Below the pieces are notes generated by a model, which did no database searches, had not been told where the DNA came from, and saw nothing but the letters and a program-made list of their open reading frames with translations. Below, one piece after another: positions 560-64,000 of a stretch of 64,000 bases of DNA; within the stretch, counting starts at the first letter, position 1, and the number at the start of each line of letters is the position of its first letter. This stretch comes from Prorocentrum cordatum (taxonomy: Eukaryota), in NCBI GenBank assembly GCA_963575745.1, contig CAUYUJ010000115.1, positions 124,001-188,000 on the forward strand. The letters run 5' to 3'. The position numbers and the translations under genes are program-made.

Positions 560-922
560 GTTAAGATTTTACTGAATCACAAGCTTTCTTTAAGCTCTCT
601 TGGGCCCTCCCTGTAGATCCTTGCGCTCCCCGGCGCTTTCGGTGGCTTTCCCCGATGGCCCCCCGAGCCCTTCCCCAGGCGCTCCTGAGACGCCTCAGAT
701 GGGCTTCGACTTCGACACACATCCCCAAGCGACTTCGCAACTGCCCTCAAAAGGAGGGGGGTGACCGCGCAGTGCGCCGGGGCCCAGCTGCTGGAGCGCT
801 GCAAGAACTCGGACACGAAGGCGCGGTCTCGCTGCCGCCGCCCGAGCCGCCGCCGTGTTTGTCGTCCCTCCGAGAACCATTCCAGAAAGATGTCGTGGAC
901 GGAGTCCACGGGCCAGCCCTAG
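560..922 (+). mobile_element. Helitron-like unit, 3' portion (5' end not identified)
   Basis: Hairpin CGTGGAC-GGA-GTCCACG (894-910), then CTAG (919-922). The same 3' region recurs at about 28900-29295 and inverted at about 62504-62745. Confidence 0.75.
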
Positions 923-2173
923 TCTCTACTACATTGCAGGGCCCAGTGCGTGCCAGAAGGGCGCAGGCTCTAATGAGTCAAAACCGCCCCGGGCTGGCTC
1001 CGGGCCGCCCCGGGCCGCCCAGGCAGGCTCCAGGACATGTCGAGAGGGCCCCCAGAAGCCCCCAAGACGGCCCCGGAGAGCCCCGGCACGCTTAAAGATG
1101 GGCCCAAGACGCCCGAGATTCGCCCCAGACGGCCCAAGAGGCGTCCAAGACGCCCGAAGAGGCCTCCCAAGAGGGCCCCGAGCGACAGAAATCGTATTTC
1201 TATTGTGTTTTTCGATGTTTTCGGCCTCCTCGCCTCTTCGGCTTCCCGACGCTCCAATACGGCCCAAGAAGTCCCCCCGACCGCTCCAAGACGGCCGAAG
1301 AGGACCCCAAGAGAGCCCCAAGACGGGCCAGGAGGGCCCCAAGACGGTCCCAAGACGCCCCAGGACGGCCCCAGGACGGCCCAGGAGGCGCCCAAGACGG
1401 CCCAAGAGGCACCCAAGACGGCCCCAGGAGCGGCCCAAGACGGCCCAAGACAGCCCAAGAGGCGCCGAGGCGGGCCTCAGACGGCCCCAAGACGGCCCAA
1501 GAGGCACCCAAGACGGCCCGAGAGGGCCCTAAGAGCCCCCCCGGGAGGCCCAAAAGAAGGCCGAAGAGGCTCCGAAACGGCCCCCACGAAGCCTTCAGTG
1601 GCTTCAGAATTCCCTCCAGGAGCGGGGGAGCGGACGAGAGGCGACAGGCATATCGCAGGCAAAAACGCCCCAAGAGATCCCCAAACGGCCCCCACGAAGC
1701 CCTAAGTGGCCTCAGAATTGCTTCCAGGAGGGGGGGAGCGGACGAGAGGCGACCGGCATATCGAATGCACAAAAGAACAATGTTGGACGCTCCGAGGGCC
1801 TTCGATGTTTCTCTGTTGGGGAGAGTCGTCGTAGGATCGACGATTGCCGACCGAGGGCATGGAGAATCCAGCGAAAGAGAAGAAGGTGGAAGAGGAGGAG
1901 GAGGAGGAGGAGGAGGCGGAGGAGGAGGAGGAGGAGGAGGAGGAGGGGGAGGAAGCAGCAGGACCTCCGAGCAGCAGCAGCAGCTGAGGAACACAGGAGA
2001 GCAGGAGGTCCTGGAGGGCCTGGCGCTGCACTGCGAGATGTGGAAAGCCAAGCTGGAGCCCGACGCCATCATGATTGCTTTTCGGCCCTGCAGCCGCACC
2101 CCCCCGCGCTTGCCCAGAGACCCCTCGCCACGTCGAGCTGATGTCGTGGACGGAGTCCACAGGTCTGCCCTCG
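923..2173 (+). mobile_element. Non-autonomous Helitron-like unit
   Basis: Starts TCTCTACTACATTGCAGGGCCC directly after the preceding CTAG. Ends GTGGAC-GGA-GTCCAC (2146-2160) + CTCG. Near-identical inverted copy at 59762-60586 that lacks about 1651-2068. Confidence 0.75.
2021..2068 (+). pseudogene. C-terminal half of a PPR repeat (ALHCEMWKAKLEPDA)
   Basis: Matches the second helix of the local PPR consensus and ends at the same A|T phase as the full blocks. Confidence 0.7.
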
Positions 2174-2383
2174 TCAGCTACAATTCTGGGATCAGCGCGT
2201 GCGCGAAGGGCGATCAGTGGCAGCGGGCGCTGGCGCTGCTGACCGAGATGCGGGAAGCGAAGCTGGAACCCGACGCCATCAGCTACACCGCTGGGATCAG
2301 CGCGTGCGCGAAGGGCGATCAGTGGCAGCGGGCGCTGGCGCTGCTGACCGAGATTTCGGAGGCGACGCTGGAGCACAACGTAA
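2174..2383 (+). CDS. PPR block, 2 repeats (210 bp), coding fragment
   Basis: SYNSGISACAKGDQWQRALALLTEMREAKLEPDAI SYTAGISACAKG...LEHNV. 35-aa P-type PPR motif, no stops. Confidence 0.8.
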
Positions 2384-3295
2384 TTGATCGAAGACGCCTA
2401 CAGCGAATCACCGCCGCCCCCTGCCTTTTGGAATCGCCCATGTGGCCGAGTGTTGTGGCAAGATCTCTGCCAAGCTATCGGGCCATGTGTTCCCCAGCCG
2501 TTGTAGAAACCAGTCGGGGAACACTTGGGGGAGGAGGAGGAGGAGGAGGAGGAGGAGGAGGAGGAGGAGGAGGAGGAGGAGGAGGAGGAGGAGGAGGAGG
2601 AGAGGGCATCTTGGGAGCCTCTGGTGCTCACTCTTGGGGTTTCCTGGGAGCAGCCTGCGAGCCTTTGGGAGGCATCTTGGGGGCCGCCTCTCTGGGCCGA
2701 TTTGGGGCCTTTCTTGGGGTGCTCCAGGGCCGTCTTGGAGGCCACCTTGGGCGTCTTGGAGGTCTCTTGGGCCGTCTTGGGGCCACCCTTGGGCCGTCTT
2801 GGGGGCCTCTTGGCCCGTTCTGAGGCCATCTTGGAGGCCTTTTGGGCGATCTCGGGGCGATAGTTTGGGGCTCTTGGGCCGTCTCGGGCCGTCGGAGGAC
2901 CGAAGAGAAACAAATGCCAAAATCCTTTCAAAACCTACGGAATATCAATAATTGTTGCCTCTTCGGGCCTTCCCAGAGGACCTCTTGGAGGCCTCTTGGG
3001 CCGTCTTGGAGGCCTCTTGGGGGCCTCTTGGGCCGTATTGGGCCATCTTGAGGCCATCTCGGACCATGTTGGAGACTTCTTGGGCGCACTTGGCGGCATC
3101 TTGGACCCTCTTGGGCCGTTTTGGAGGCCATATGGGCGAGCTTAGATGCCATTTCGGGACAGCTGAGCCGTCATAAAAGCCATCTTGGGCCATATTGGAA
3201 CGGAGCGGCATTGATATAGACATGTTGCAGTCCTTACCGGTTGACCGACTGGACGGGCCGAAGCCCCAGGGGGAATTCTTTTGGGGAAAAACAAA

Positions 3296-3400
3296 TGTGA
3301 GATAGTGTATGTGCCACGTGTGTATATGCACTACTCGCTGCCGTTTGACCTCTACGGGGGATTGTTTTTGCCAGTGCGCTAAAAATGCATCATAATCACA
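3296..3400 (+). repeat. 5' LTR
   Basis: TGTGA...TCACA ends. Aligns by eye with 13903-14005 (shared core TCGCTGCCGTTTGACCTCTA). Confidence 0.9.
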
Positions 3401-3401
3401 C

Positions 3402-3413
3402 TGGTAGCGGAGC
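3402..3413 (+). promoter_or_regulatory. Primer-binding site
   Basis: TGGTAGCGGAGC 1 nt after the 5' LTR. Resembles the Met-tRNA-type PBS TGGTATCAGAGC. Confidence 0.75.
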
Positions 3414-3529
3414 TACTACACGGTCCTCGTGTCGTACCACTGCGCGCACGTTTCGCCAGAGAGTGTCGCACTACCTCCCTTTACTTTCTGTGCTGGCAGA
3501 TTCCCTCGCTAGGGGACTGAGCCTTGCGC

Positions 3530-4790
3530 CATGGCACTTTCTTTTCTTCGCTAGCGCCGACGCGCTGGCGCGGTCCGAGACGAAGAGTGGCTCCTACATC
3601 TACGACGGCACGGTGAACAGCTTTCACGAGTGGGAATTCCGCACAGAGATGCGCATGAGTGCCGCCTTGGCCTCAGTCGATCAAGAGATTGGTGCGCCAC
3701 AGCAACACGTGACCGCCGCAGCTGCCAACAAGGTTGTAGAAGGCCCCAGAGGTGACGCGCTCGATATTGCGATGGATATCGGTAAGGACGTGCCTTTGAC
3801 TCCGAATGGGATCGACCAGCTGGCGCTGGCGATTCGTACTGCACTCTTCCCCATAGAGGCGCAGGAAGCGAAGATCCTGTTCCAGGCGGGGCAGAGACCA
3901 TATGGACCACTGTCTCGGCAGCACGGTGAGTCTATGGCTTCGTACATCGCCCGAAGGAAGCGCTGGTGGAAACTTGTCTCCATGTTAGATCTCAAGATCT
4001 TGATGGGCGACGATGTGCTTGGCTCCCTTTTCTTGGACCATGCAAGACTCTCGCCTTCGGAGAACCTGATGGTGTTGACATCCACCGAACATTTGACAAC
4101 TTCGACAAGATCAGGGACGTCTTGATCCTCCATCTCGGCCGCATGCGCAGCCGCCAAGAAAGGCAAGGGCGAGCGTGGTAGAGGCCCCAGCTCTTCGACA
4201 TGGGCGCAGCCCAGACCCAGCTACCAGACCTGAGCAAGGGCAAGGGCAAGGTGCGCTTCTCCAGACCACAACGCGCCTTCTACAATGCCGATGAAGGATG
4301 GTACGAGCAGGAAGAGCATTACCCTGAGCAGCTAAGTCCCTACGGGCACTTCGCGTCCGGCTATGCGCCAGAGCACGGCTGGGACGACGCGGCCTCGGAC
4401 GACTACGCCGACGAACGCACCTGCGTCGACGAGGGGTCGCATGCTCTCTGGGCCCCTGTCCAGGATAGCAGCGAGCTCGACGTCGATGTGGCCGACGAGA
4501 TGGTCGAGGCCGGATACGCGGAGGAAGGAGCTTCTGACGCGATCCAGGAGGGCCTGGTCGCCGATCCTGGCGCCAGAGGGAGGGGCAAGGGCAATGGAAA
4601 GAGCGGAGGCAAGGGTCACCACTGCACGCCCTGGTCGCCCAACGAGGGCGGCAAGGGGGGGCCCCCCCTGGAAGATCGCGCGGGAGCGGCTCCAGGATAT
4701 CAAGAAACGCTCGAAATGCAAGACCTGCCACGAAGCAGGCCACTGGTCCGGGGGGCCTGATTGCAAGGGCAAGCCCAGGGCGGCAGTGGT
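3530..4790 (+). pseudogene. gag: gag, frameshifted, with CCHC zinc knuckle
   Basis: YDGTVNSFHEWEFR...ESMASYIARRKRWW capsid-like segment. CKTCHEAGHWSGGPDC knuckle at about 4717-4765. Confidence 0.8.
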
Positions 4791-6679
4791 TGCGCACGCT
4801 GGAGACACTGGCGAGCGCCATGTCCAGTTGCGCGAGGACGATGATGGACGAGAGTTCGGATCCGTCAGTTCTGCGGCTGCATCATCATGAATTCCCCATC
4901 ATATCATTGGGGGCAAGGAGGAGTCGATGAGGATGGATCCTGGTGTTTCTCGTTACTGCTCTTCTTTCTCTTCTCGCGCCATGCGTCGCAGGGCATGCGC
5001 GCGCGAGGGGGGGGGGGGGGGGGGGATTGTGATGGGCAGTGTAGCTTTTGTAGCGCAACCACGTTGAGCGTCATGTCTGCGTGAGTTGCACGGTGATGAC
5101 CGAAGCCGCTCCGGTTCAGGGGCCTCCAGGGCTCCAGGAAAAGGGTCTTCAGACCTCTGAAGAGGCTGAGGGAGATACTCATGGGTTCATGGCTGTTCGC
5201 TCGACCGAATCAAATTCTATGAGTAGTGTTTCTGATGAAAAGTTTAGAGGGGGGGGGATCCGTTGCGGATGCGAGCTTACCTGGCCAGGATATTGCGTCT
5301 GCTTCGGGTCAGCACAAGGGGCTTGGTTGTGGTCGTGTTCTCAGGGGTACTCCAGATCCCGTGGATTGGGGTCGCAAGGTGAAGAAACCGAGTGAGGGTC
5401 TGGTTCTGTTCTTAGGACGGGTCGATGGCAACTTCACTCGGGGGGGGGGCGGACAGTTTATGAAAGCTCCGGGGCCGAAAGTTTGCAGTCACAGAGTTTT
5501 GCTTTCTTCTTTTTTTCTGGCCTGAACAGGAAACCTCCAAATGCCCCGTTGCCTTATCCTTGCGCTCGAGGTTGCAAGGGTCCCCCGGGAGTCGGGCCTA
5601 GCGCTCGTTTCGTTGTGCGCACCGGAAAGGGTTGCGGGCGCGAGACCGAGGCGGAGAGGTGCGAGGCACTGCACTCGCCAGGCGAGTGCCCGCGCGATCT
5701 CGTGGACAAGGGCGGCAGCACTCCAGATGTTGTTCGCGCGAATGGCTGTCGCTGCCTGGCGCGCGTCGATGGGCAGCCCAGGACGCAAGCAGAATGCAAG
5801 AGAGCAACAGCTAGGAAAGCCGAACGCTCCAGCAACATCCAAGCAGAAGCAATTGGGCATATGTTTGAGGATGATCGCCGCATCACCTCTACAGAGGTAA
5901 AGGTTGCATTAAAGGCTTCCACTAAACGTGCGCCGCTGGGATGTGCGATGCCACGGGTGACATGCGCACAGGTGAACTAACTCCTTTGCTCCGCGATTGC
6001 GTCGCAGAAGTCGCAGATCAGAGTCTCTTTTTTCGGTTTTATGTCTCCAGCGCAGAACGTTCCGATCGAAGTTTCGGCCCCCCTAAGCTTGGGCTCGTAA
6101 CGCAGAGGATAAATTCGATAAGTTTGGTTTCCATCCTACATGGGTTCGCAGACAGCGTGAGACGCGCAGCAGCGTGCGAGGACAGGCAGGGAGTGAGACG
6201 ACAGGTAAGAGGAGTTTTCCGTCTCGTATCGTTGCTTCTGGCGGCGCCGTGAGCGAGCGTCTCGAGTCGCATCTGTTGAAGGATTCGGATCATGTTCCTC
6301 TCTCGGTGTCTCTTCCTGCGCAGACTTCCCTCGGTCTCTCGAAGGATATTGCTAATGGTCGCTCTCTCTCGAGCCAGGAAGGTGAGGTAGGATCGTGTCG
6401 TTGTGATCGCCCAGGCCTTCTCATCATTCGTCTCGGTCAGTGTGGCCCCGAACGCGTTGCGGAGCCCGCTCGTCTGTTGCGCATTTCGTACATAAGCAGT
6501 GACCAGCCGTGCTGCGCAGCTCCCGCCGGCGACGCCGCGCCGCCTGCTGTCGTGGATCACTCCAGCGACGACTGGGTTACTCGTGTGCCTGCGCCCGTCG
6601 ACCATTCCAGTGATGACGAGGAAGTGCGGGTCGCTGCCATGGCTGCTGGCGGTGGTGCTCGCCCCGCGCCACAGCGCTC

Positions 6680-7200
6680 GAAGTTAGCTGCGATCACTCT
6701 TGGAGAACTTCGAGAACACCCCGAGGTGCTCGGGGTCGACGATGCTGAAGGAGTACATCCGCCGTCATCAACGCTCCAGTCACGAGATGACTACCAGAGG
6801 GGCGCGACGCCAATGCCATCATAGATGGGCTCGTTGCTGCAGATCAGAACCTGGCGAACTATGATTGGTATGTGTTGGTAGACACCTGAGCGCTTAACGA
6901 CCCGACTCAGGCGCGCCATATCGGTCATCGCCCGAATATCCCACGCAAGTCAGTTGAGAATGAGCATTTTGTTGGCATCGTTGAGTATGCGGGAAGATCT
7001 TTGGCGAAGAACACGTGGTCACAGTCTGTGCGCATCGTTGTCATCGGCCGTTCTGGTCGGTATCGCTCTGTTGCTGTCAGTTATGGTGTTAAGCCGTTCT
7101 TGAAGCAGTGCGACATTAAATGCAGTTCTGCGCGCCTGAGTCGACATGAGTTGCCCAATCGTACTTGTAACGGAGAATGCGATGGTTGCTGCCACTTATC
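6680..7200 (+). pseudogene. RapZ C-terminal-like domain relic inside the retrotransposon
   Basis: LAAITLG...VDT*ALNDP..RHIG...VRIVVIGRSGRYRSVAVS resembles the RapZ-C motifs SFG, DxRxLxNP and IxxGCTGGxHRSVA. Recognised by eye only. Confidence 0.5.
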
Positions 7201-9249
7201 CGATTGGGCCCGTGAGATGTCAAATTCTGCGGCTGACAAGATGGTTTCGCTTTTGATTGAATTCGTGGAGAAGTTTAGTGCACCGCCGCCTCAGTTCCTG
7301 CGCCGTCTGCCAAGCGCAGACCCCGCGACGGGGCTGAGCTGGCCAGGAGGGAGGCGAAGAGAACTCGCGCTTCATCGAGTGCGGTTAACGAAGTAGATGA
7401 TAATGACGTGGCCACTGTCGTCTGTGAACACACCAAAACAACCTGGCGTGAACGTCTCGGCGCTGACTATATTGAGGCAGATTTCATGATCCGGATGAGG
7501 CGATATGTTGGGCGTGAGCTGCACTTGTATTTGAAGATCTGCCACGAGGACAGGAGGCCGCCTGCAGATCATATGCGATTTGTACGTTATGCTCGTGTGT
7601 ATGCAGAAACTGGTGCATTGCCCACTTCTGTTGGTGGCAGTATTCCTGCTGCTGCTGCTTCGCCACCGCCCGTCGCCGCATCGTCTTTTGCCGCTGCATC
7701 ACCCCCTTACATATCGGGCACGCGATGCGCAGGGCGACGACGACGACGCGCCGAAGAAGAAGGCACGCATGGGCAGCGCCGGCGAGTCGACGGGTCTGCC
7801 ACCGGGCGAACCTGCACCTCAGGGCACGATCATTCGCCCTCCTGGGATGCTTCCTATGATGCCTCCACCAAAGCACAAGCCCGCTGTCCTCGCGCCGAGG
7901 CAGCCGGACGGACCGCCGCCTGCACGCATTCACAGAGTTCCTCTGCCGCCTCCGCCACCGTAGCCGCCGCGCAGGGTAGGGCCGCTACCGCCACCACCAC
8001 CGCCTCCGGCGAGTACTGCTGCCGCCAGCAGCGAAGACGAATCGAGCAAGACTCGGGCATCTCGTTCAGGATCCCCGACTTCTCCTGTCGAGAGGGACCT
8101 TGCCACGGTGGTGAGCGGGCCGGAGATCCAGTCGTGGACTTCTAGTCGATTGCAGTTGGCGCAGCTCAGCTGGATTCGCTTTTCCAGCACAGCAAGAAGA
8201 GGAACTTGATCACGCACGTTGATCCTCGATCGTTCCCATCAGAGGGGTCGAAGGGCTGCGCGGGAGAGCAGGGCGCTGGGAAATTGGTGCGTGCGAGCTG
8301 CGAAATTGATCCGTTCAACACTCCGATCAAGTTCCCGCCGGCATGGTCTTCTTGGAAGAAGAGTTCCATGGGTTGCTCCAAGGACACCCAGACCTGGAAG
8401 CGTACAGAAGATCGTGTTGCCATGAGTTCTTCCGTGGATGCTGAGGAGTTCGATCGAGTGGCAATATGTGTGCAGCCTCCGGGGACCCGCGTTGACGGAA
8501 CATCGCATTTGTGCGCGCCACTGCAGCTGGGCCAGCATGAGACGACTACCATGAATGCTCAAAATCGTGCCAAATATTGCCGTGGATTGTGACATCAGTA
8601 TGCAGGATGAGTTGTTATCTGCGTGCGTTGCCGAGCTGTCCGTACCAGGCATGTCTGCTACCGACAAGGAGATCGTCGAGAAGGTGATCGCGAACACCGA
8701 TCCGCTTCGCGGACGAGCGGGGACCAACCTGGCCAGGGTGCTGCTCTACGTCATCGGCATCGCGTTCGCCTGCCCAGTCTCGAGCGACACGGCGGTGCGC
8801 CCAAATAGGGAGCCTTCGATGGCAAAATACACCATCGAGCGCAATCCTACACACATCATCATCAAATCATGTGATCAGTGATTGTTTCTCTGGTTTGGCT
8901 CAAGATGATGGTCATGTAACTGCTGCGCTCGGTTACGAGCCTGGTTGCTCAAGCCTCGAGGTTACTAGTGCGCTGAACTCGTACTTGAGTCAGACGCGGA
9001 CATCGCGAGTCAGAGATTCCTCGAGTTCCTCAGGGAGTTTGGTCGGAAAGTTAGACTGAATAGATTTGCGCTTGCAGCTTTCGCCGTTGAAGCCGCAGAG
9101 GAGAGAGTTCGCGACGAGATGTGCACGATGATCGGTGATGACGACGTCGCTACAGTCTCTGCGGAACGCCTGCGACATGGGGAGCTAGTTATCCTGGAAC
9201 AAATCAACCTACCTGGCGAGCCGAGGCACGAAGGAAAGAGAAGGAAAGC

Positions 9250-11500: not shown

Positions 11501-12099
11501 ACCTCCAGACGGGCAACAGCAGACGTTCGAGGGCGAGCGACGCGAGCTGCCAGAACCACGGGCGCAAGAGCATTCTGCGCAAGAACATCCTATGGCGACG
11601 GAAAAGCTACCGGGGCCTCCAGAAGGCCCCGAGTTCATAGAGGAAGCATTTCGCCAAATGGAAGATGAGCTGTCAGATGGAATTTCGTTCCTGTGCCGCC
11701 CGCGATGAGGTCGTCACAGGTGACTCGAGAGCCTCTTCTGAGGTCGTTATTAGACGACGCCCCGCGCGGCATACAGAGTCGCAACGAAGTGATGCGCAGA
11801 AGAGTCGAGAATGCCGATGGTAGTGCGCGAAGGGTTTCCGAGTCTGTCTCGGAGCCAGCTCCCAAACCAGCGATCTCTCTTCTTGAGGCCATGCGCCGGG
11901 CCGGAACATCGGGGCCGGGCATGGATCTTCTAGCTCGTAGAGAAGCTTCACTCGCTGTTAAATCACATGGAAGGCTGGTCGGATTCTTCAATGAACGCAC
12001 CGTCAATAAGCCGCAATCCAAGAGGAAGCTAGAGAGTGCAAAGAATATTGTATACCATCGGGAATCTCAGGACGTGAAAAGCGGTTTACGCCTGGCAAG

Positions 12100-20720: not shown

Positions 20721-20759
20721 CAAAGCGAGAGTGGAGAAGTGTTTGCGGTGCCCGAAGAA

Positions 20760-26287: not shown

Positions 26288-26293
26288 CCTCCA

Positions 26294-33700: not shown

Positions 33701-33784
<84 letters not shown>

Positions 33785-52744: not shown

Positions 52745-53059
52745 TAACGTCTGGCTTCAGCCTCGTCTCCCACATCTCGCTCAGCAGCGCCAGAGCCCGC
52801 TGCCACTGCTCGCCCTGTGCGCACGCGATGATCCCAGCGCTGCAGCTGGTGATGTCGGATCCCAGCATCGCCTCCCACATCTCGCTCAGCAGCGCCAGAG
52901 CCCGCTGCCACTGCTGGCACTTCCCGCAAGCGCTGATCCCAGCGGTATAGCTGATGGCGTTGGGCACTAGCTTCGCCTCCCACATCTCGCTCAGCAGCGC
53001 CAGAGCCCGCTGCCACTGCTCGCCCTTGTCGCAGGCGCTCATCCCAGCGCTGTAGCTGA
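52745..53059 (-). CDS. PPR block, 3 repeats (315 bp)
   Basis: SYSAGMSACDKGEQWQRALALLSEMWEAKLVPNAI SYTAG...LGSDIT SCSAG...LKPDV. Confidence 0.85.
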
Positions 53060-56250: not shown

Positions 56251-56379
56251 TGGGGCGATGGTGGTGATGACGGCGTTGATACGAAGCCGATGATGATGAT
56301 GACGAGAAGGAGGATGAGGGCGATGATGATGATGACGATGACGATGATGGCGGTGGCGTTGATGATGATAAGGATGATG

Positions 56380-56627
56380 GCGGTGCGGGCGCCGGCAGCC
56401 CGCAGGCGGGCTGCCAGGTCCGCCGGCGGCCCCCGGGACAGAAAGTCGAGGCCAGGATCGCGGATCGTCCGGATGTTGTCCGACGTCGTCGCCTTCGAGA
56501 GCATGACGTACAAAAGGAGCCAAAAACCGTCCAGGTCTTCAGCGCCTTTATACCCGGCGTCAACGATGACGCCTTGGTGCAAGGTCCTGCCCTGGCACGC
56601 CGTCGACGTGAGCACCTGGGCGTGCAA
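56380..56627 (-). pseudogene. PIF1/RecD-family (SF1B) helicase C-terminal relic, consistent with Helitron RepHel
   Basis: AQVLTSTACQGRTLHQGVIVDAG...LYVMLSKATTSDNI matches motifs V-VI (AxTxHKSQGxTL..VxVD...YVALSRA). Confidence 0.72.
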
Positions 56628-56659
56628 GATCTGCAGTCGTGTGCGCGTCCCTTTAATAC

Positions 56660-58825
56660 GGCATTCTGCTGTGATCCGAGAAGCCCACGAAAGCGGCGAC
56701 TGTGTCGCACATCGCAGCCCCCAAGGGACGGCGAGGTCTCATGGCGATCCCGGTAAGACGTCACCCTGCTGGTCCTAGCAGGAGCTCACGAAAGTGGCGG
56801 CGAGGTCTCATGGTGATCCCCGTAGGACATCACCCTCCTGGGCCTCCCAGGAGCCCACGAAAGTGGCCACAGTGTCGCAGATCGCAGGACCCCCGGGACG
56901 GCGAGGTCTCATGGTGATCACCGTAAGACGTCACCCGTCTGGGCTCCCCAGGAGCCCCTGGAGCCCACGAAAATCGCGACAGTGTCGCAGATCGCAGCCC
57001 CCCCAAAGACGGCGATGCCTCATAGTGATCCCCGTAGGAAGTCACTCTGCTAGGCTTCCCAGGAGCCCACGAAAGTGGCGACAGCTCAGCAGATCGCAGC
57101 ACCCCCAGGGACGGCGAGGTGTCATGGTGATCCCCGTATGTGTCACTCTGCTGGACCTCCCGGGAGCTCACGAAAGTGGCGACAGCTTCGCAGATCGCAG
57201 CCCTCCAGGGACGGCGAGGTCTCATGGTGATCCCCGTAAGACGTCACTCTGCTGGGATTCCCAGGAACCCACGAAAGTGGCGACAGCTTTGCAGATCGCA
57301 GGACCCCCGGGACGGCGAGGTCTCATGGTGATCCCCGTAGGACGTCACTCTGCTGCGCTTCCTAGGAGCCCACGAAAGTGGCGACAGTGTCGCACATCGC
57401 AGCCCCACAGGGACGGCGAGGTCTCATGGTGACCCCCCGGGACGTTACTCTGCTGGGCCTCACAAGAGCCCACGACAGGGGCGACAGCTTAGCAGATCGC
57501 AGTTCCCCAGGGACGGCGAGGTGGCATGGTGTTCCCCGTAGGACGTCACTTTGCTGGGCTTCCCAGGAGCCCACGAAAGTGGCGACAGCTCAGCAGATCG
57601 CAGCACCCCCAGGGACGGCGAGGTCTCATGGTGATCCCCGTAGGACGTCACTCTGCTGCTGGGCGACAGCTTCGCAGATCGCAGCCCCCTCTCACGGTGA
57701 TCCCCGTAGGACGTCAATGGCGACAGCTTCGCAGATCGCAGCCCCAACAGGGACGTAGGACGTCAGCTGTCTCGACAGGTGATCTCCCGTAGGACGTCAC
57801 TCTGCTGGGCCTCACAGGAGCCCACGAAACGGTGGTAGGACGTCACTCTGCTGGGCCTCACAGGAGCCCACGAAAGTGGCGACAGCTTCGCAGATCGCAG
57901 CACCCCCAAGGACGGCAAGGTCGCATGGTGATCCCCGTAGGACGTCACTCTGCTAGGCTTCCCAGGAGCCCACGAAAGTGGCGACAGCTTAGCAGATCGT
58001 AGCACCCCCAGGGACGGCGAGGTCTCATGGTGATCCCCGTAGGACGTCACTCTGCTGGGCCTTCCAAGAGCCCACGACAGGGGCGACAGCTTCGCAGATC
58101 GCAGCCCCCCAAGGACGGTAACGTCTCACGGTGATCCCCGTAGGACGTCGATCTGCTGGGCTTCCCAGGAACCCACGAAAGTTGCGGCAGCTGCGCAGAT
58201 CGCAGCCCCAACAGGGACGACGAGGTGTCATGGTGATCCCCGTAGGACGTCACCCCGCTGGGCCTCACAGGAGCCCACGAAAGTGGCGACAGTGTCGCAT
58301 ATCGCAGGCCACCAGGGACGGCGAGGTCTCATGGTGATCCCTGTAGGACGTCACTCCGCTGGGCTTCCCAGGAGCCCACGAAAATGGAAACAGCTGCGCA
58401 GATCGCAGCCCCCCAGGGACGGCGAGGTCTCATGGTGATCGCCGTAGGACGCCACCCCGCTGGGCTTCCCAGGAGCCAGCGAAAATGGAAACAGCTTCGC
58501 AGGTCGCAGCCCCACAGGGACGGCGAGGTCTTGTAGTGATCCCCGTAGGACGTCGACCTGCTAGGCTTCCCAGGAGCCCACGAAAGTGGCGACAGCTTAG
58601 AAGATCGCAGCTCCCCCGGGGATGGCGAGGCCTCATGATGATCCCCGTAGGACGTCACTCTGCTGGGCCTCGCAGGGAAACACGAAAGTTGCGACAGTTT
58701 CGCAGATCGCAGCACACCCAGGGACGGCGAGGTGTCACAGTGGTCCCCGTAGGACGTCACTCCGCTGGCCCCCCTCCCAGGAGCCCACGAAAGCGGCGAC
58801 GGTTTCGCGGATCGCAACCGCCCAG
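56660..58825 (-). repeat. ~100 bp satellite, inverted homolog of the 21918-23145 array
   Basis: Core CGAAAGTGGCGACAGCTTCGCAGATCGCAGCCCCCAGGGACGGCGAGGTCT closely matches the reverse complement of the 102 bp unit core. Confidence 0.9.
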
Positions 58826-59142
58826 GGTCGGCAGGGAGGAGGCAGGCAGGAGGAGAAGGAAAAGGAGGAGGAGGAGGAGGAGGAGGAGGAGGAGGAGGAG
58901 GGGGAGGAGGAGGGGGGAGGGCAAGCTAGGTGCGCTCGCGTCATATCTGACATCCTAGCCCTCCCTCCCATCCCTTACCATGGCGCAGATCCCCTCTCTA
59001 CTCGCACAGTCGGATGTCGAGCAGGGCAATGATCCCGAAAGGGTACGCGATGCATTGTAGAGCACGGCGTGGCATGGCGTAGAAGAGCACCGCAAAGCGT
59101 AGCATCAACCTAGCATTGCATTACACGCCGTGGCATGGCACG

Positions 59143-59320
59143 GGAAATGACGCCAGCGCTGCAGCGGGAGCACGAGTCGAAACGAGCAGAAGCGCGGAAA
59201 TGAGGCCAGCGCTGCAGCGGGAGCACGATTCGGAACGAGCGGAAGCACGGAAATGAGGCCAGCGCTGCAGCGGGAGCACGATTCGGAACGAGCGGGGCCC
59301 GAAAATGAGGCCAGCGCCTC
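59143..59320. repeat. ~54 bp tandem repeat, about 3 copies
   Basis: GAAATGAGGCCAGCGCTGCAGCGGGAGCACGA recurs. Confidence 0.85.
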
Positions 59321-59656
59321 AGCGAGAGCAGCATGTTGGAAACAAGTGCAGGCGAAAACCAAACTCCTGGGAAACCTGTGTGTAAAAAAACAGTGCGCGG
59401 GGGGGGGTCGGACACTTTCAAACCGTCATCAGGGGAAGAGGGAGAGTAGTATTCATATTGAGTAATTGTGGAGGAGGAGGGGGGATGAGAAGAGGAGGAG
59501 GAGGACGAGGAGGAAGAGGAAGGAGAAGAAGGAGAGGCGGGAGGTCGGAGAGCACAGTGCTCTGTTCAAAACGAAAACCCAACACAGGCGGGTTGGGCAA
59601 AGACACTGGTGCACAAAATCTCTTCGCACGCGGAGGTTCCGGCATTCTAGAGGAGG

Positions 59657-59761
59657 TGACGTTGGGCTTCAGCTTCGCCTTCCGCATCTCGCTCAGCAGC
59701 TCCAGAGCCGCCTGCCACTGCTCGCCCTTCTCGCACGCACTGATCCCAGCGCTGTAGCTGA
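59657..59761 (-). CDS. PPR block, 1 repeat (105 bp)
   Basis: SYSAGISACEKGEQWQAALELLSEMRKAKLKPNV. Confidence 0.8.
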
Positions 59762-60586
59762 CTAGGGCAGACCTGTGGACTCCGTCCACGACATCAGCTC
59801 GACGTAGCGAGGGGTCTCTGGGCAAGCGCGGGGGGGTGCGGCTGCAGGGCCGAAAGGCAATCATGATGCCTGTCGCCTCTCGTCCGCTCCCCCGCTCCTG
59901 GAGGGAATTCTGAAGCCACTGAAGGCTTCGTGGGGGCCGTTTCGGAGCCTCTTCGGCCTTCTTTTGGGCCTCCTGGGGGGGCTCTTAGGGCCCTCTCGAA
60001 CCGTCTTGGGTGCCTCTTGGGCCGTCTTGGGGCCGTCTGAGGCCCGCCTGGGCGCCTCTTGGGCTGTCTTGGGCCGTCTTGGGCCGCTCTTGGGGCCGTC
60101 TCGGGTGCCTCTTGGGCCGTCTTGGGCGCCTCCTGGGCCGTCCTGGGGCCGTCCTGGGGCGTCTTGGGACCGTCTTGGGGCCCTCCTGGCCCGCCTTGGG
60201 GCTCTCTTGGGGTCCTCTGCGGCCGTCTTGGAGCGGTCGGGGGGACTTCTGGGGCCGTCTTGGAGCGTCGGGAAGCCGAAGAGGCGAGGAGGCCGAAAAC
60301 ATCGAAAAACACAATAGAAATCGACGATTTCTGTCGCTCGGGGCCCTCTTGGGAGGCCTCTTCGGGCGTCTTGGACGCCTCTTGGGCCGTCTGGGGCGAA
60401 CCTCGGGCGTCTTGGGCCCACCTTTAAGCGTGCCGGGGCTCTCCCGGGCCGTCTTGGGGGCTTCTGGGGGCCCTCTTGACGTGTCTTGGGGCCTCCCTGG
60501 GCGGCCCGGGGCCAGCCCGGGGCGGTTTCGGTGCATTGGGGCCTGCGCCATTCTGGCACGCACTGGGCCCTGCAATGTAGTAGAGA
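59762..60586 (-). mobile_element. Helitron-like unit (inverted copy of the 923-2173 family)
   Basis: 5' TCTCTACTACATTGC. 3' GTGGAC-GGA-GTCCAC + CTAG|T. Confidence 0.8.
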
Positions 60587-62503
60587 CTAGGGCTGACCCG
60601 CGGCCTTCCGGCCGCGGAATCTGCCCGCCATGGCTTGGACGTGGAAGTGGAGCGTCTCTGGGGCCTCGCGAGTAAGGGGAGGTTGGAGGGGACGGTGTGG
60701 ATGGAGGAGGTGGCCGCTGGAGGGGGAGGTGGGCGAGGGATGCAGGCAAGCAGGCCTGAAGGCAGGAACGCGGTGGTGGAGGCGGTGTCAATGGAAGCGC
60801 ACCCATGTAGGCATGACAGCTGTTTCTGACGCCGCAGTCTGTGTTCATCATAGCTTCTGCGGGGAGGGCAGTCGTGAGAAGTTATCTGCTCTTCGCCGGG
60901 GCCGAATGATAATTTGATGTGGTAGTGTGGTAACAATGGGGCCAGTGGGCGCGGCCTAGGAGGCCCGCAAGAGGGCGGCGAGACGTAACTCCCTAAGACG
61001 GGCCCCAGTGCGAGGACACGAATCGACCTTTCGAGCGCATCGCCCCAAGACGTCCCCAAATGGCGCAGAGATGGCTCGCAGTGGGTCCAAGAAGCCCCCA
61101 AGACGATACTGGAAGTTCGACGCTCCCCAAGAGAGAAGCATCCAACGCCTCTTGGGGGCCGCTTGGGGGCCCTTTTCGTCCTCCTGGGGGTCTCTTGAAG
61201 CCCTCTTGGGCAATCTTGAGTGCGTCTTGGGCCGTCTTGGGGCGATGTGGGGCCGTCTTGGACGCCTCTCGGCATCTTGGGACAGTCTTGGAGCTATCGT
61301 GGGCAAATTTTGGGCGCTCTTGGGGTTGTCTTTGGTGTTTCTTGAGCCGTCTCGGGCGCCTCTGGAGCCGTCCCTGACGGCCCAGAGACCGTCTTGGAGA
61401 CTGTCCAAACGGAAAGGCGTGGAGACGATGGTGGGGGCATCTACAGCCGTCTTGGAGACGGGGCGGTGGGGCCGTCTTGGGCCATTATTGACTGATCTTG
61501 GGGCTGTATTGGGTGCGTCTTGGGCCGTCTCGGGGCCCTCCTGGGGCCCTCCTGGGAAGCCTCTTCGGCGTCTCTTGGGCCGTCGTAGAGGCGTCTTGGG
61601 CCGTCTTGGCGCCGCAAAAGGCAGTCTTGGCTTGTCGTGGAGCGCTCTTGGAGCGTCTTGGGGATACCTTGGGGCCGTCCTGGGAGCCTCTTGGTGTCAC
61701 CCTGGGGCCGTTGTGGGCGCCTCTTGGGCTCTCTTGACGCCCTCTCGGGCCGGTTTTCGTGCGTCTTGGGGGCCTCTTGGGCCATCTTGGGGCGGTCGTG
61801 GGGACCTGGAACCAGCTTCTGCGCCATATTCCCGTGAAGCAGCGCATGCTGGAAGTGAGCGTTTTTCTTCGGGGAAACAATGAGTTTCGCCTCTGGGGGC
61901 CATCCTTGGACGCCTCTTGGGCGTCTCTGGGGCCGTCGTGGAGGCGTCCTGGGCCGTCTTGGGTTTGTTTTCGGCGGTCTTGGGCTCTCTTGGAGCGCTC
62001 TTGGGCCGTCTTGGGGGAGTCTGGGGCCGTCCTGGGCGCCTCCTGGGAGCCTCTGGGGGCCGCCTGGGGGCCGTGTTGGGCGCCTCTTGGGTCTCTGGAC
62101 GCTCTCGCGGGCCTGTTTTCGTGCCTCTGGGGGGCCTCTTGGGCCGTCTTGGGGCGGTCGTGGGGGCCTCTTGTCCCATCTTTTGCGCCATACTCCCGAC
62201 AAGCAGTGCGTGCTAAAATTTGATGTTTTTCGTTGGAAAAACAATGATTTGATCCTGGGACGCCTCTTGAGCGTCTCTGGGGCCGTCGTGGAGGCCTCCT
62301 GGGCCTTGTCGGGACCGTTTTCGGCGGTCTGGAGCTCTCTTGGAGCGCTCTTGGGCCGTTTTTGGGGTGTCTGGGGCCGTCCTGGGCGCCTCTGGGGCCG
62401 CGTGAGCGCCTCTGGGGCGTCCCTGGAGCCGTTGTGGGGCATTTTTCGCCCATCAAGACAGGGACCCTTCCCGCACGCACGGGTCCCTGCATTGTAGAGA
62501 AGA
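60587..62503 (-). mobile_element. Helitron-like unit (head-to-tail junctions on both sides)
   Basis: 5' TCTTCTCTACAATGC. 3' CCGCGGCC-GGAA-GGCCGCGG (about 60598-60617) + CTAG. Confidence 0.75.
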
Positions 62504-63185
62504 CTAGGGCTGACCTGTGGACTCCGTCCACGACATCTTTCTGTAATGGTTCTCGGAGGAACGGCGGAGATTTTGCCGAAGGCCAATAAGCACGGCGGCG
62601 GCCGGGGCGGAGGCAGCCAAACTGAAGTCTCACGGGGATGTGCGTCAAAATTGAAGCCCATCTGAGGCGTCTCGTGAGCGCCTGGGGAAGGGCTCGGGAG
62701 GCCCTCGGGGAAAGCCACCGGGAGCGCCGGGGAGTCTTGCCAGGATCTCTTCGGGCGCTTTTGGGCCATCTTGGAACCCTTTTGGCCCGTCTAGGACCTC
62801 TCTTGGAAGTTTGAGGCACTAGGAGCCGTCTGGAGCAGTTCTTGGGGCGAAGTTGGGAGATCCTGAGAGTCAGTCAACGACTATGGGAAATCTTCGATTC
62901 GGGCATCGTGGGGCCGTCAGTCATCCAGGTCCTCTTGGCCGTCTTGGAGGGCCTCCTGGCTCGCGTTGGGGCCGTCTTGGGCCATTCTGAGGCTCGCTTC
63001 GGGCTCTCTGGGACCACCTGGGCTTGGGCCGTCGTTGGACGTCCTGGAGCCTTCCAGCGGCCGTCCAGCGCCGTCCGGGGTCGCCCCAGGGGCACCGGGT
63101 CGCCCCTGGAGCGCCGGGAGCCGCCCCGGCCTGCTGCCGCTGCAGCGCCATCTCGCGCGCGCGGGCCCGAGCTTGGTGGTACAGG
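62504..63185 (-). mobile_element. Helitron-like unit
   Basis: 5' CCTGTACCACCAAGC. 3' GTGGAC-GGA-GTCCAC (62517-62531) + CTAG. Confidence 0.72.
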
Positions 63186-63290
63186 TGACGTCGGGCAGCA
63201 GCTTCGCCTCCCGCATCTCGCCCAGCAGCGCCAGAGCACGCTGCCACTGCCCCCCCTTCTCGCACGCGCTGATCCCAGCGCTGTAGCTGA
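63186..63290 (-). CDS. PPR block, 1 repeat (105 bp)
   Basis: SYSAGISACEKGGQWQRALALLGEMREAKLLPDV. Confidence 0.8.
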
Positions 63291-64000
63291 CTGGTGCGTG
63301 CCCGTGGTGTGCCCACGGCAGACAGGTCAGAGTGTGGGCCCCGAGCGCGAAGATGTCGCCGACGCGAGGAGCAGAAGAGGGGGGGACAGCGGCACCAGAG
63401 AGATGGGGGGAGGCTCCCAGAGGCAGATAATGAGGAAGCGAAGAAAGAACTCGGGCCTCCTCCTCCTCCTCCTCCGCCTCCTCCGTCCTCCCCCATCCGT
63501 ATGTTCCAGTTGGCGCAAGGTGGCTGGTCCTCTCCTGTTCCAAGATCGGTGAGAAGTGTTTTGCGCCGGCCTCGTTCGGAGTCTGGGGTTTCCTCCAGGG
63601 TGTCGCCCCCATCGCCCAGAGGTGGACGGGGGGGGGACGAGGCCTCCTGCTGGTGTGTGCGGGGGGGAGAGGAGGAGGGTGAGGGGAAAGAAGGCAAGCA
63701 GAAGAAGGACAGCGACAACGGAGAGAGGGATGTAGAGGCACCAAAGAGTAGTAGGAGGAGGAGGAACGGGAGGAGGAGGAGGAGGAGGAGGAAGAGGAGG
63801 AAGAGGAGGAAGAGGAGGAGGAGGAGGCGGAGGAGGAGGAGCAGAGAAGAGCGGAGAGCAGGGAGCGAGGCTTTCTTGGGCGTGCTTGGGGTTCGGGGTT
63901 CTCTTTGGGACCTCGAGTGATCCAGGACTGGCAAAGATGCTGGGGTTCGAGGCTCTCGTGGGAGCCCCTTGGCAGCTATCAGAGCCTCTTGGGAGGCCGC
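63291..64000 (-). mobile_element. Helitron-like unit, 3' portion (runs off the window)
   Basis: CCGTGG-N5-CCACGG hairpin (63302-63318) + CCAG|T. Confidence 0.6.

What the first reader, a model, noticed from the sequence alone, without database searches (positions are those of the whole stretch)
894..63318. Chain of Helitron-like units interleaved in exact register with PPR repeat modules
Seen: 15 termini of the form hairpin + about 8-13 nt + CTAG or a close variant, ending at 922, 2173, 16542, 17767, 24889, 26182, 29295, 31185, 32094 and 33972 (+), and at 63291, 62504, 60587, 59762 and 53060 (-). Nine are followed by PPR-coding blocks of exactly 210, 105, 210, 105, 210, 315, 105, 105 and 315 bp. 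Every block starts T(C/T)AGCTA and ends at the same A (consensus ...GTCA), and the next unit then starts, typically TC(TC)TAC. Established: 5'-TC, a 3' hairpin + CTRR, insertion between A and T and no TSD are the hallmarks of Helitrons. Inference: a rolling-circle element family targets, or carries along, one fixed A|T site of the PPR repeat, which turns PPR repeats into movable whole-number cassettes. I do not know of a described PPR-specific Helitron family.
Basis: partly seen in the sequence, partly recalled or inferred. Interest (0 to 1): 0.92.

Follow-up and report, generated by a model that had tools for sequence, protein, structure and literature searches.

The report
Helitron-like repeats locked onto PPR boundaries
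A dinoflagellate-type genome stretch holds a family of non-coding repeat units with Helitron-style ends that always sit exactly at the boundary of PPR protein repeats, which may be a target-specific rolling-circle transposon but cannot yet be told from an array that grew by recombination.

Summary
All 15 termini exist. A profile built from them finds only those 15 in 64 kb. Their 7-bp stem covaries. The nine PPR blocks are exactly 105, 210 or 315 bp.

The units are one diverged, non-coding family. It has no terminal inverted repeats, no target duplication and no transposase in the window. The PPR repeats are closest to Prorocentrum cordatum proteins. The same terminus-to-PPR junction recurs at seven other loci.

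The Helitron reading is partly supported.
- For: the 3' hairpin about 12 nt before CTAG, and a published maize Helitron 5' consensus that hits only at three unit starts.
- Against: the first ~40 nt of every unit is PPR-like, so the 5'-TC and the A|T "site" are not independent evidence. Only 10 of 15 units start TC and 9 of 15 end CTAG.

No RepHel, empty site or RNA data could be obtained. Array recombination and an intron-like role remain live rivals. Nothing supports PPR "cassette" transport.

Helitron-like, PPR-specific element: about 0.45.

The parts
889..922 (+). 3' terminus of partial unit U1 (hairpin GTGGAC-GGA-GTCCAC, GGGCCAGCC, CTAG). It abuts unit U2 directly.
923..2173 (+). Unit U2 (1251 bp). 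Starts TCTCTACTAC, holds CCCAAGACGG-type degenerate repeats and an internal half PPR at 2019-2068, and ends hairpin + CTCG. It is 94-98% identical to V4.
2174..2383 (+). PPR block, 2 repeats (210 bp)
2384..16542 (+). Unit U3 (14159 bp, many nested repeats). Its 3' terminus ends TTGG at 16542.
16543..17767 (+). Unit U4 (1225 bp). Its terminus ends ATAG.
17768..17872 (+). PPR block, 1 repeat
17873..24889 (+). Unit U5 (7017 bp). Its PPR-like start lies ~188 nt in (18060-18093). It carries a 102-bp satellite at 22073-23144 and its terminus ends CTAT.
24890..25099 (+). PPR block, 2 repeats
25100..26182 (+). Unit U6 (1083 bp). Its 5' end is PPR-like over ~53 nt.
26183..26287 (+). PPR block, 1 repeat
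26288..29295 (+). Unit U7 (3008 bp). Its 3' ~400 bp is 79-91% identical to U1 and related to V2.
29296..31185 (+). Unit U8 (1890 bp). Its hairpin is the compensated variant CCGCGGC..GCCGCGG.
31186..32094 (+). Unit U9 (909 bp)
32095..32304 (+). PPR block, 2 repeats
32305..33972 (+). Unit U10 (1668 bp). Starts TCTCTACTAC and ends TTAG.
33973..34287 (+). PPR block, 3 repeats
34288..37635 (+). Unit U11, with no 3' terminus found. Its 5' 300 bp and 36121-36795 are 91-95% identical to V3. A ~1.5-kb insert separates them.
63186..63290 (-). PPR block, 1 repeat, preceded by the terminus of partial unit V1 (ends CCAG at 63291)
62504..63185 (-). Unit V2 (682 bp). Starts CCTGTAC. Its 3' end is of the U1/U7 type.
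60587..62503 (-). Unit V3 (1917 bp). It is present between V2 and V4 but absent from the paralogous U1|U2 junction.
59762..60586 (-). Unit V4 (825 bp). Starts TCTCTACTAC. It is a copy of U2 without U2's 415-bp insert.
59657..59761 (-). PPR block, 1 repeat
53060..59656 (-). Unit V5 (6597 bp). It carries the same 101-102-bp satellite as U5.
52745..53059 (-). PPR block, 3 repeats

Best explanation
The units are non-autonomous copies of a mobile element with canonical (HLE1-type) Helitron ends.

Anatomy:
- The left end is TCTCTACTAC-like and was built out of, or mimics, the first ~40 nt of a SACEK-type PPR repeat.
- The right end is a GC-rich hairpin, about 12 nt of spacer, and CTAG.

Proposed mechanism (inferred):
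- A RepHel-type HUH nuclease encoded elsewhere nicks the donor at |TC and terminates at the hairpin-CTAG signal.
- The single strand is then joined into a target that resembles the element's own left junction. That target is immediately 5' of TCAGCTAC (a PPR repeat start) or 5' of another unit's TCTCTAC.
- Each inserted unit brings a new copy of the target at its own 5' end. Repeated hits therefore build head-to-tail chains interleaved with whole PPR repeats, all in one orientation, with no target duplication.

Shown: the precise ends, the hairpin covariation, the lack of terminal inverted repeats and target duplications, the family structure, the register with PPR repeats, and the recurrence at other loci.

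Inferred: rolling-circle transposition, the target-mimicry step, and the existence of an autonomous partner.
For: (1) 3' end.
- All 15 termini have the hairpin roughly 8-13 nt before the end tetranucleotide, which is exact CTAG in 9 of 15.
- The stem is kept by compensatory changes.
- A terminus HMM finds only these 15 in 64 kb.

(2) 5' end.
- 10 of 15 units start with TC.
- The maize Helitron 5' criterion TC[TC][CA]TA[CT]TA[CA] (PMC2267711, passages) hits the window 3 times against 0.15 expected.
- All three hits are exactly at the unit starts 923, 32305 and 60586(-). U2 and V4 are copies, so these are two independent cases.

(3) No terminal inverted repeats in 0 of 13 units, and no consistent flanking duplication.

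(4) One family by descent.
- The units share a layout of PPR-like start, CCCAAGACGG-type repeats and a central AAATCGTC..ATTTC motif.
- All 12 aligned 5' ends share the same 2 extra nt relative to the PPR start. Independent decay of PPR repeats would not produce that.

(5) TE-like distribution.
- Closest relatives are never neighbours: U1-U7-V2, U2-V4 at 94-98% and U11-V3 at 95%.
- U2 and V4 have unrelated upstream neighbours and only ~85-87% identical downstream PPR.

(6) Paralogous segments U1|U2|PPR, U7|U8|U9|PPR and V2|V3|V4|PPR differ by one whole unit each (U9, V3) at CTAG|TC junctions. This takes 2 insertions or at least 3 deletions. The U8 to U2 homology is the weaker link.

(7) Junctions are always exact. 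All 6 unit|unit junctions and all 9 PPR|unit junctions keep the unit-type start. Crossovers spread over the 40-nt PPR-like homology would give hybrid starts.

(8) The same terminus-to-PPR junction occurs at other loci:
- metagenome contig L105;
- six protein loci read through the junction: P0016, P0076, P0096, P0103, P0105 and P0122/P0123. P0016 and P0096 are unnamed ENA contigs; the other four loci are P. cordatum gene models.

(9) A RepHel has been reported from the dinoflagellate Symbiodinium microadriaticum (PMC8788227, passage). It is Helitron2-like.
Against: - No RepHel or any transposase or reverse-transcriptase domain in 95 window ORFs. Only PPR domains were found.
- The genome is not held, so there is no autonomous partner, no genome-wide tabulation and no off-target insertion.
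- The only dinoflagellate RepHel found in print is Helitron2-like, whose elements have different ends.
- 5'-TC, the A before and the T after are all predicted by PPR periodicity alone.
- 5 of 15 units do not start with TC. 6 of 15 ends are not CTRR. 6 of 15 units are preceded by G.
- Unit gain or loss can be produced by recombination between the ~16-nt GGTCAGCCCTAGTCT repeats at unit ends. No true empty site was seen.
- Most copies are old (~70-80% identical). Read depth outside the low-complexity parts is low in the runs laid.
- The 16 PPR repeats have no indel and no stop at 84% mean identity, while the units are full of indels. That is odd if the arrays are merely dead landing pads.
- 9 of 13 unit lengths are multiples of 3, which is unexplained.
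Confidence: 0.45

Rival explanations
1. Array member, not a transposon. The unit is a PPR-repeat 'slot' that long ago acquired a large non-coding insertion and new end sequences. It has since spread and shuffled only by the ordinary dynamics of tandem PPR arrays: unequal crossing-over, gene conversion and segmental (including inverted) duplication. Register, orientation and the absence of target duplications then come for free. The Helitron-like ends are a coincidence, or the hairpin has another role.
For: - The unit 5' ends are PPR-like at model positions 4/5 to ~35-53 (nhmmer; alignment).
- The permuted PPR model runs 7-20 nt into some unit 3' ends.
- In U2 the last 105 nt sit exactly one repeat length after an internal half PPR.
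- Multi-unit segments appear to be duplicated: U1|U2, U7|U8 and V2|..|V4.
- The window holds a 6-kb inverted duplication.
- Every one of the 15 + 7 junctions seen is next to PPR-like sequence, never next to anything else.
- Conserved ~16-nt unit ends can mediate exact unit-sized deletions.
Against: - It does not explain a hairpin kept by compensatory changes.
- It does not explain the exclusive match of unit starts to a published Helitron 5' consensus.
- Nearest relatives are never adjacent, and two of the three clear groups (U2-V4, U11-V3) lie on oppositely oriented arms with unrelated flanks.
- Junctions are always at the same base rather than spread over the 40-nt homology.
- The homology of the hairpin region to PPR is not significant. 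The single-repeat model gave no hit at E<10.
Confidence: 0.25
2. Intron-like role. The units are introns, or intron-generating elements ('introners', possibly Helitron-derived), of expressed SACEK-PPR genes. CTAG| supplies the 3' splice site. A G|GC, G|GT or G|GA donor lies some tens of nt inside the unit's PPR-like start.
For: - 12 of 15 termini end in AG.
- All units are in the sense orientation of the PPR frame.
- PPR blocks are intact (16 of 16 repeats exactly 105 nt, no stops) while units decay with indels. That is the contrast expected between exons and introns.
- The P. cordatum gene model P0014 reads ..LYYIAGPSACQKGA|VSYNAAVSACEKG. This implies a GCAG|GC donor ~44 nt into a U2-type unit and the CTAG| acceptor.
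- U6 has an in-phase G|GT donor before its first in-frame stop (reading).
- Dinoflagellates use GT, GC and GA donors (10.1101/2020.10.14.339549, section 0 part 1 read).
- Helitron-derived introners are reported in other taxa (PMC12130899, passages read).
Against: - Exact excision would need TC/CC/TT/TA..AG boundaries. 0 of the 9 units that follow a PPR block start with G.
- The U2-type donor is out of phase with the CTAG|TC acceptor after a PPR block. Gene model P0061 runs into frame-shifted PPR and stops.
- Three termini lack AG, and two of those precede intact blocks.
- Units have neither terminal inverted repeats (0 of 13) nor the 3-8-nt duplications of the described dinoflagellate introners.
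- Six gene models or contig ORFs read straight through hairpin-CTAG into PPR. Several are gene predictions and not proof.
Confidence: 0.15
3. Site-specific retroposon or SINE. A non-autonomous retroelement whose conserved 3' stem-loop is the recognition signal of a 'stringent' reverse transcriptase, inserted by target-primed reverse transcription at the PPR repeat start.
For: - The 3' junction is precise and has a conserved, covarying stem-loop close to the end.
- Orientation is strict and the target is a multi-copy sequence. This resembles rDNA- or spliced-leader-specific non-LTR elements (recalled knowledge, no call).
Against: - No poly(A) or 3' microsatellite tail and no target duplication or deletion.
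- The 5' ends are as precise as the 3' ends rather than variably truncated.
- No reverse transcriptase in 95 ORFs.
- No spliced-leader relic at unit ends.
Confidence: 0.05

Closest known systems
Canonical Helitrons (HLE1), non-autonomous copies, e.g. maize HelA/HelB-type elements
   Same: - 5' TC, here even TCTCTACTAC, which fits the maize 5' criterion.
- A GC-rich palindrome 10-15 nt before a 3' CTAG.
- T after the 3' end.
- No terminal inverted repeats and no target duplication.
- Head-to-tail neighbours.

The definitions come from passages read in PMC2267711, PMC6591975 and PMC11417382. The tests are.
   Different: - The target is not any A|T but one fixed position of a coding repeat.
- The left ~40 nt is homologous to the target.
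- One third of copies deviate from TC or CTRR.
- No RepHel partner is known.
- The host is a dinoflagellate. The only RepHel I found in print for that group is Helitron2-like (PMC8788227, passage).
Target-specific transposons of multi-copy genes (R1/R2 and Pokey in rDNA, spliced-leader-specific CRE/SLACS-type elements); recalled, no call
   Same: One fixed insertion point in a highly repeated host sequence, one orientation, many independent hits.
   Different: Those are retroelements or piggyBac-type transposons with their own hallmarks. Here the ends are Helitron-like and the target is a protein repeat boundary.
Dinoflagellate introners / introner-like elements (Roy et al., 10.1101/2020.10.14.339549; P. 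cordatum 'introner elements', PMC10666404 passages)
   Same: Repeat families sitting inside genes of dinoflagellates in the sense orientation and ending in AG.
   Different: The described ones have terminal inverted repeats and 3-8-nt target duplications that supply the donor. These units have neither, and exact excision would not use a G-initial donor.
SACEK-type P-class PPR arrays of core dinoflagellates (review PMC12787238, passages)
   Same: The blocks are runs of 35-aa repeats ..SYNAGISACEKGEQWQRAL... Best hits are P. cordatum PPR proteins, up to 83% identity.
   Different: Here the arrays are cut every 1-3 repeats by 0.7-15 kb non-coding units.

Membership tests
Helitron (HLE1, canonical) | 5' terminus TC | tested here: inconclusive
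   10 of 15 unit starts are TC; the rest are CC (3), TT and TA. The TC is also what a PPR repeat start (TCAGC) would give, so it is not independent. Three starts match the 10-nt maize 5' criterion exactly, and the window has no other match.
Helitron (HLE1, canonical) | 3' terminus CTRR | tested here: inconclusive
   9 of 15 are CTAG. Six deviate: TTAG, ATAG, CCAG, CTCG, TTGG and CTAT.
Helitron (HLE1, canonical) | GC-rich palindrome/hairpin 10-15 nt upstream of the 3' end | tested here: met
   A 6-8 bp stem is found in 15 of 16 folds. It ends about 12 nt before the end in most copies, 8 nt in the extended variants. Covariation: 87.5% of cells paired, 9 cells with changes on both sides, 0 of 500 shuffles as high.
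Helitron (HLE1, canonical) | Insertion between host A and T without target duplication | tested here: inconclusive
   T follows in 15 of 15. A precedes in 9 of 15; G (the end of the previous unit) precedes in 6 of 15. No duplication is seen. The continuous PPR junction GTCA|TCAGC serves as a paralogous 'empty site', but no orthologous empty site was available.
Helitron (HLE1, canonical) | No terminal inverted repeats | tested here: met
   0 of 13 complete units score above shuffles for 60-nt ends.
Helitron (HLE1, canonical) | Autonomous RepHel element with the same termini in the genome | not testable with these tools
   No genome is held. No RepHel lies in 95 window ORFs. The genome contigs and viral-contig scans gave 0 hits.
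Dinoflagellate introner (TIR DNA-transposon type) | Terminal inverted repeats plus a 3-8-nt target duplication that supplies a G[TCA] donor, with AG at the element end | tested here: not met
   No terminal inverted repeats (0 of 13). No duplication. 0 of the 9 units after PPR blocks start with G. AG ends 12 of 15 termini.
Spliceosomal intron | Removal from RNA at G[TCA]..AG with the frame kept | not testable with these tools
   No RNA holder was listed and only contigs could be laid. Gene models P0014, P0061 and P0122 are predictions and disagree with each other.
P-class (SACEK) PPR repeats | Tandem 35-aa helix-turn-helix repeats matching Pfam PPR models | tested here: met
   There are 16 repeats of exactly 105 nt. 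PF13041, PF01535 and PF13812 hit the ORFs covering the blocks. Best hits are P. cordatum PPR proteins.

The most novel reading that the evidence does not exclude
A Helitron lineage has turned the start of a PPR repeat into its own left terminus. The transposase then cuts any PPR repeat boundary as if it were an element end. Every insertion recreates the target, so the element homes into PPR arrays, stacks head to tail, and splits PPR genes into whole-repeat modules. It may be tolerated because CTAG| and internal G|GY sites let it be spliced. That would be the first transposon specific for a protein-repeat boundary and a ready-made engine for reshuffling RNA-binding repeat arrays.
Probability: 0.3. 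Interest if true: 0.85.

Novelty: new variant of a known kind. Interest (0 to 1): 0.62.

Why it matters
PPR proteins read RNA one repeat per base. Dinoflagellates have hundreds of them, in tandem gene blocks.

A mobile element that lands only at the repeat boundary, in frame register and in one orientation, would matter in three ways:
- It would be a rare case of sequence-specific Helitron targeting.
- It would offer a mechanism for adding, removing or recombining whole PPR repeats.
- It would be a handle on how Helitron nucleases choose cut sites, by mimicry between the left terminus and the target.

It would also bear on why gene models of PPR arrays in Prorocentrum look frame-shifted and truncated.

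If the rival holds (an array member spread by recombination), the finding is a local curiosity of repeat-array evolution.

I found no paper describing a PPR-targeting Helitron. The searches were made, with the terms Helitron, Symbiodinium, pentatricopeptide, dinoflagellate, Prorocentrum and transposable elements.

Tried and rejected
- **Own genome.** None is held, so no genome-wide tabulation was possible.
- **Sequencing runs.** No RNA holder was listed, and only small-share holders were found.
- **Laying four runs.** Only contigs were available. Depth was dominated by high-copy repeats, and the joints lay in low-complexity sequence. There was no usable splice or empty-site evidence.
- **Metagenome scan.** My pattern was too loose. 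Of the 120 loci, 119 were unrelated (mostly prokaryote-like gut, soil and water contigs) and only L105 was relevant.
- **Genome contigs and viral contigs.** A specific pattern gave 0 hits in each.
- **Earlier findings.** Nothing was on record.
- **Rfam.** No family matched.
- **Spliced-leader relic motif (motif recalled).** There was no hit at unit ends.
- **Units as coding sequence.** Rejected. Every unit has in-frame stops. Unit 3' ends show no codon periodicity: differences fall 5/3/2 and 6/7/7 over the three codon positions in two alignments, and the third had no differences in its ungapped part. Indels are not multiples of 3.
- **Independent decay of PPR repeats ('intronisation').** Rejected, because all 12 aligned unit starts share the same +2 nt.
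- **Hairpin region as a diverged PPR repeat.** Not significant. The single-repeat model gave no hit at E<10. The permuted model extends only 7-20 nt into unit ends.
- **Terminal inverted repeats and base pairing between unit ends.** None was found.
- **Region-restricted protein search for other copies of the U2-type 3' end.** Only 2 proteins were found, both at one locus.

Full report
**What the window is.**
- The 64-kb window is 51-68% G+C in 2-kb bins, about 62% overall.
- No whole genome is held for it.
- Its only recognisable coding content is PPR repeats. Pfam on 95 long ORFs gave PPR families and one sub-threshold Nop14 match. No Rep, helicase, transposase or reverse-transcriptase family came up.
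- A three-repeat block (33972-34286) finds dinoflagellate PPR proteins. The closest are predicted proteins of Prorocentrum cordatum, up to 83% identity. No identical protein is on record.
- The repeats are of the ..SYNAGISACEKGEQWQRAL.. kind, which a 2026 review calls SACEK-PPRs. The review says they are abundant in P. cordatum, and that dinoflagellate PPR genes in general often lie in blocks of tandemly duplicated genes (PMC12787238, passages read).
- The P. cordatum genome paper gives 59.7% G+C, long introns and GC/GA donor sites (PMC10666404, passages read).

**Check of the observation.**
- Each has a stem-loop: mostly GTGGAC-GGA-GTCCAC, but also GCGGCC..GGCCGC, GTGGCT..AGGCCAC and GTGGAT..ATCCAC.
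- About 12 nt follow (consensus GGGTCAGCC), then the end tetranucleotide.
- That tetranucleotide is CTAG in 9 of 15. The other six are TTAG, ATAG, CCAG, CTCG, TTGG and CTAT. The next base is T in 15 of 15.
- On an alignment of the 15 termini plus one metagenome copy (A1), the 7-bp stem is paired in 87.5% of 112 cells.
- Three pairs carry changes on both sides, in 9 cells. None of 500 shuffles reaches the covariation score or the percentage paired. Sliding the partner by 1-3 columns drops pairing to 21-39%.
- Single-strand DNA folding returns the stem in 15 of 16 sequences, at -3.8 to -16 kcal/mol.
- A profile HMM of A1 finds exactly these 15 sites at E<=0.02 in both strands. The next hit has E=0.4.
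- A looser regular expression of mine recovered 12 of the 15 and nothing else convincing.
- The nine PPR blocks are exactly 210, 105, 210, 105, 210, 315, 105, 105 and 315 bp. That makes 16 repeats of exactly 105 nt, all open in one frame.

One correction applies. Only 4 of the 9 units that follow a block begin with TC, and 10 of all 15 unit starts do.

- Whatever follows a terminus is PPR-like. It is either an intact repeat or the first ~40 nt of the next unit.
- A PPR nucleotide HMM aligns positions 4/5 to 35-53 of the repeat to the starts of U2, U6, U9, U10, U11, V3, V4 and V5, always 5-7 nt after the unit start (E from 0.00065 to 4.8). It also hits inside U5 and U7, about 185 nt in.
- In a MAFFT alignment all 12 unit starts begin two columns before the PPR start (TC+TCTACTAC.. 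against TCAGCTAC..), and they lack the AG of TCAGC.
- Two consequences follow. First, 5'-TC, the A before and the T after are what PPR periodicity alone would give, so they are not three independent Helitron hallmarks. Second, the shared +2 shows that the unit starts descend from one ancestor and are not independently decayed repeats.

**Anatomy of the units.**
- Thirteen units are complete, 682 to 14159 bp. Four are cut or lack an end (U1, U11, V1, V6).
- The short ones share one layout (TRF rows):
  - a PPR-like start;
  - degenerate CCCAAGACGG-type repeats;
  - a central AAATCGTC..ATTTC motif;
  - more such repeats;
  - a subfamily-specific 3' region;
  - the hairpin and end.
- The long ones hold nested tandem repeats, among them a 102-bp satellite in both U5 and V5.
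- Every unit has stops in all three frames.
- Aligned 3' regions show indels of any length and no codon periodicity.
- There are no terminal inverted repeats: 0 of 13 units exceed shuffles.
- There is no consistent flanking duplication.
- Rfam finds nothing.

**Evidence that units behave as discrete movable or exchangeable modules.**
- Clear close relatives are U2-V4 (94-98% identity), U11-V3 (91-96%) and U1-U7-V2 (79-91% over the last 300-400 bp). None of these pairs is adjacent. U2-V4 and U11-V3 lie on oppositely oriented arms.
- U2 and V4 have unrelated upstream neighbours (U1 against V3). Their downstream PPR repeats are only ~85-87% identical, which is the background level between any two repeats (mean 84%). 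So the copy event comprised the unit alone.
- Three segments look paralogous: U1|U2|PPR, U7|U8|U9|PPR and V2|V3|V4|PPR. The second has an extra whole unit (U9) at the unit|PPR junction. The third has an extra whole unit (V3) at the unit|unit junction.
- That pattern needs two insertions, or at least three deletions. The U8 to U2 homology is the weakest link (72% over 683 bp, partly low complexity).
- All 6 unit|unit and all 9 PPR|unit junctions carry a pure unit-type start. Crossovers scattered over the 40-nt PPR-like homology would give hybrids.
- Against this, each unit end carries the same ~16 nt (GGTCAGCCCTAG+TCT). Recombination between such repeats would also remove or add exactly one unit.

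**Other loci.** My one metagenome scan used too loose a pattern. Only 1 of 120 loci was relevant: L105. It shows CCCAAGACGG repeats, the same hairpin, GGGTCAGCCCTAG and then at least three PPR repeats.

They represent six loci outside the window plus the window's own translation:
- P0016 and P0096, colinear ORFs on short ENA contigs. P0016 has exactly five repeats between a terminus and a unit start.
- P0076, P0103, P0105 and P0122/P0123, which are P. cordatum gene models.

P0122 shows a U2-type unit preceded by PPR repeats. So the same subfamily occurs after a PPR repeat, after U1 and after V3.

Scans of genome contigs and viral contigs gave nothing.

**Helitron test.**
- Canonical Helitrons are defined by 5'-TC, 3'-CTRR (mostly CTAG), a 16-20-nt GC-rich palindrome 10-15 nt before the 3' end, insertion between A and T, and no inverted repeats (passages read in PMC2267711, PMC6591975, PMC11417382).
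- The hairpin and its spacing are met. So are the absence of inverted repeats and of duplications.
- TC (10 of 15), CTRR (9 of 15) and A|T (9 of 15 A, 15 of 15 T) are met only in part, and are confounded by the PPR-like start.
- One test is independent of that confound. The 5' search criterion derived from maize Helitrons, TC[TC][CA]TA[CT]TA[CA], matches the window three times (0.15 expected, largest shuffle value 1).
- All three matches are exactly the starts of U2, U10 and V4. U2 and V4 are copies, so there are two independent cases.
- The deviations of the unit start from a PPR start (two extra bases, AG replaced) are just those that create this consensus.
- The decisive feature, an autonomous RepHel with the same ends, could not be tested.
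- A RepHel is on record for Symbiodinium microadriaticum but is Helitron2-like (PMC8788227, passage).

**Intron test.**
- Exact removal of a unit would need boundaries TC/CC/TT/TA..AG. None of the 9 units after a block starts with G.
- Donors further in exist. Gene model P0014 implies GCAG|GC about 44 nt into a U2-type unit joined to CTAG|TC.
- After a PPR block that donor is out of phase. Model P0061 runs into frame-shifted PPR and a stop.
- U6 has an in-phase G|GT before its first stop (reading). Such sites are expected by chance.
- The described dinoflagellate introners have inverted repeats and a 3-8-nt duplication that gives the donor (10.1101/2020.10.14.339549, section 0 part 1 read). 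These units have neither.
- RNA evidence was not obtainable. No RNA holder was listed, and the laid runs were contigs dominated by repeats.
- One point keeps this rival alive. The 16 PPR repeats have no indel and no stop at 84% mean identity, with 457 synonymous against 844 non-synonymous single-difference codons. The units are riddled with indels. The blocks are therefore under coding constraint or are kept by gene conversion from functional copies.
- 9 of 13 unit lengths and 5 of 7 inter-block gaps are multiples of 3 (binomial p about 0.009 and 0.045 by my own arithmetic). This is unexplained.

**Verdict.**
- The pattern is real, not chance, and recurs elsewhere in this lineage.
- The best single explanation is a non-autonomous family with canonical Helitron-type ends that is specific for the PPR repeat boundary. 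Its left end is derived from, or mimics, the target (confidence 0.45).
- Growth and shuffling of a composite array by recombination alone (0.25) and an intron-like role (0.15, not exclusive of the first) cannot be excluded without the genome and RNA data. A retroposon with a 3' stem-loop is unlikely (0.05).
The one recent copy pair moved without its PPR neighbour.
- I found no description in print of a PPR-specific Helitron.

Noticed in passing
window 37636-43636 and 45826-51741: A ~6-kb inverted duplication (84% identity over 6191 columns) sits between the plus-oriented and minus-oriented chains. It is rich in (GAC)n, (GAG)n, (TCC)n and (TCG)n microsatellites. A 107-bp tandem repeat with an internal palindrome lies near its centre (44801-45256).
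   Followed up: partly
window 22073-23144 (+) and 54445-58832: A 101-102-bp satellite is nested in the long units U5 and V5, in the same orientation relative to each unit. It is the highest-depth part of the region in the laid runs, with summed word depth up to ~1e5 against ~2-7 in the lowest-depth bins.
   Followed up: partly
units U2-U10 and V2-V5: 9 of 13 complete units and 5 of 7 gaps between PPR blocks have lengths divisible by 3, including the 15384-bp and 7017-bp gaps, although every unit has in-frame stops. No explanation was found.
   Followed up: partly
window 42698-42712 (-), 43636-43650 (-), 46750-46764 (+): CGATTGTGGCTCAAG-like 15-mers have 2-3 mismatches to the recalled 3' part of the dinoflagellate spliced leader. 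Two lie at or near the ends of the inverted duplication. They may be spliced-leader relics of retroposed sequence.
   Followed up: no
proteins P0027, P0046, P0061, P0066, P0092 (P. cordatum gene models): These gene models contain PPR repeats translated in all three frames (for example QLQRWDQRVREGRAVAA and SATTLGSARARRASSGS). That suggests many annotated PPR genes of this species run through frame-shifted or interrupted arrays like the one here.
   Followed up: partly
window 24810-24836: A second hairpin (GTGGAGTAAATCCAC) lies about 50 nt upstream of the hairpin of terminus 24889, so unit U5 ends with two hairpins in tandem.
   Followed up: no
window 1652-2066: U2 carries a 415-bp insert relative to V4. 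It begins with a ~115-bp tandem duplication and holds a (GAG)n run. It ends with a half PPR repeat exactly 105 nt before the unit end.
   Followed up: partly
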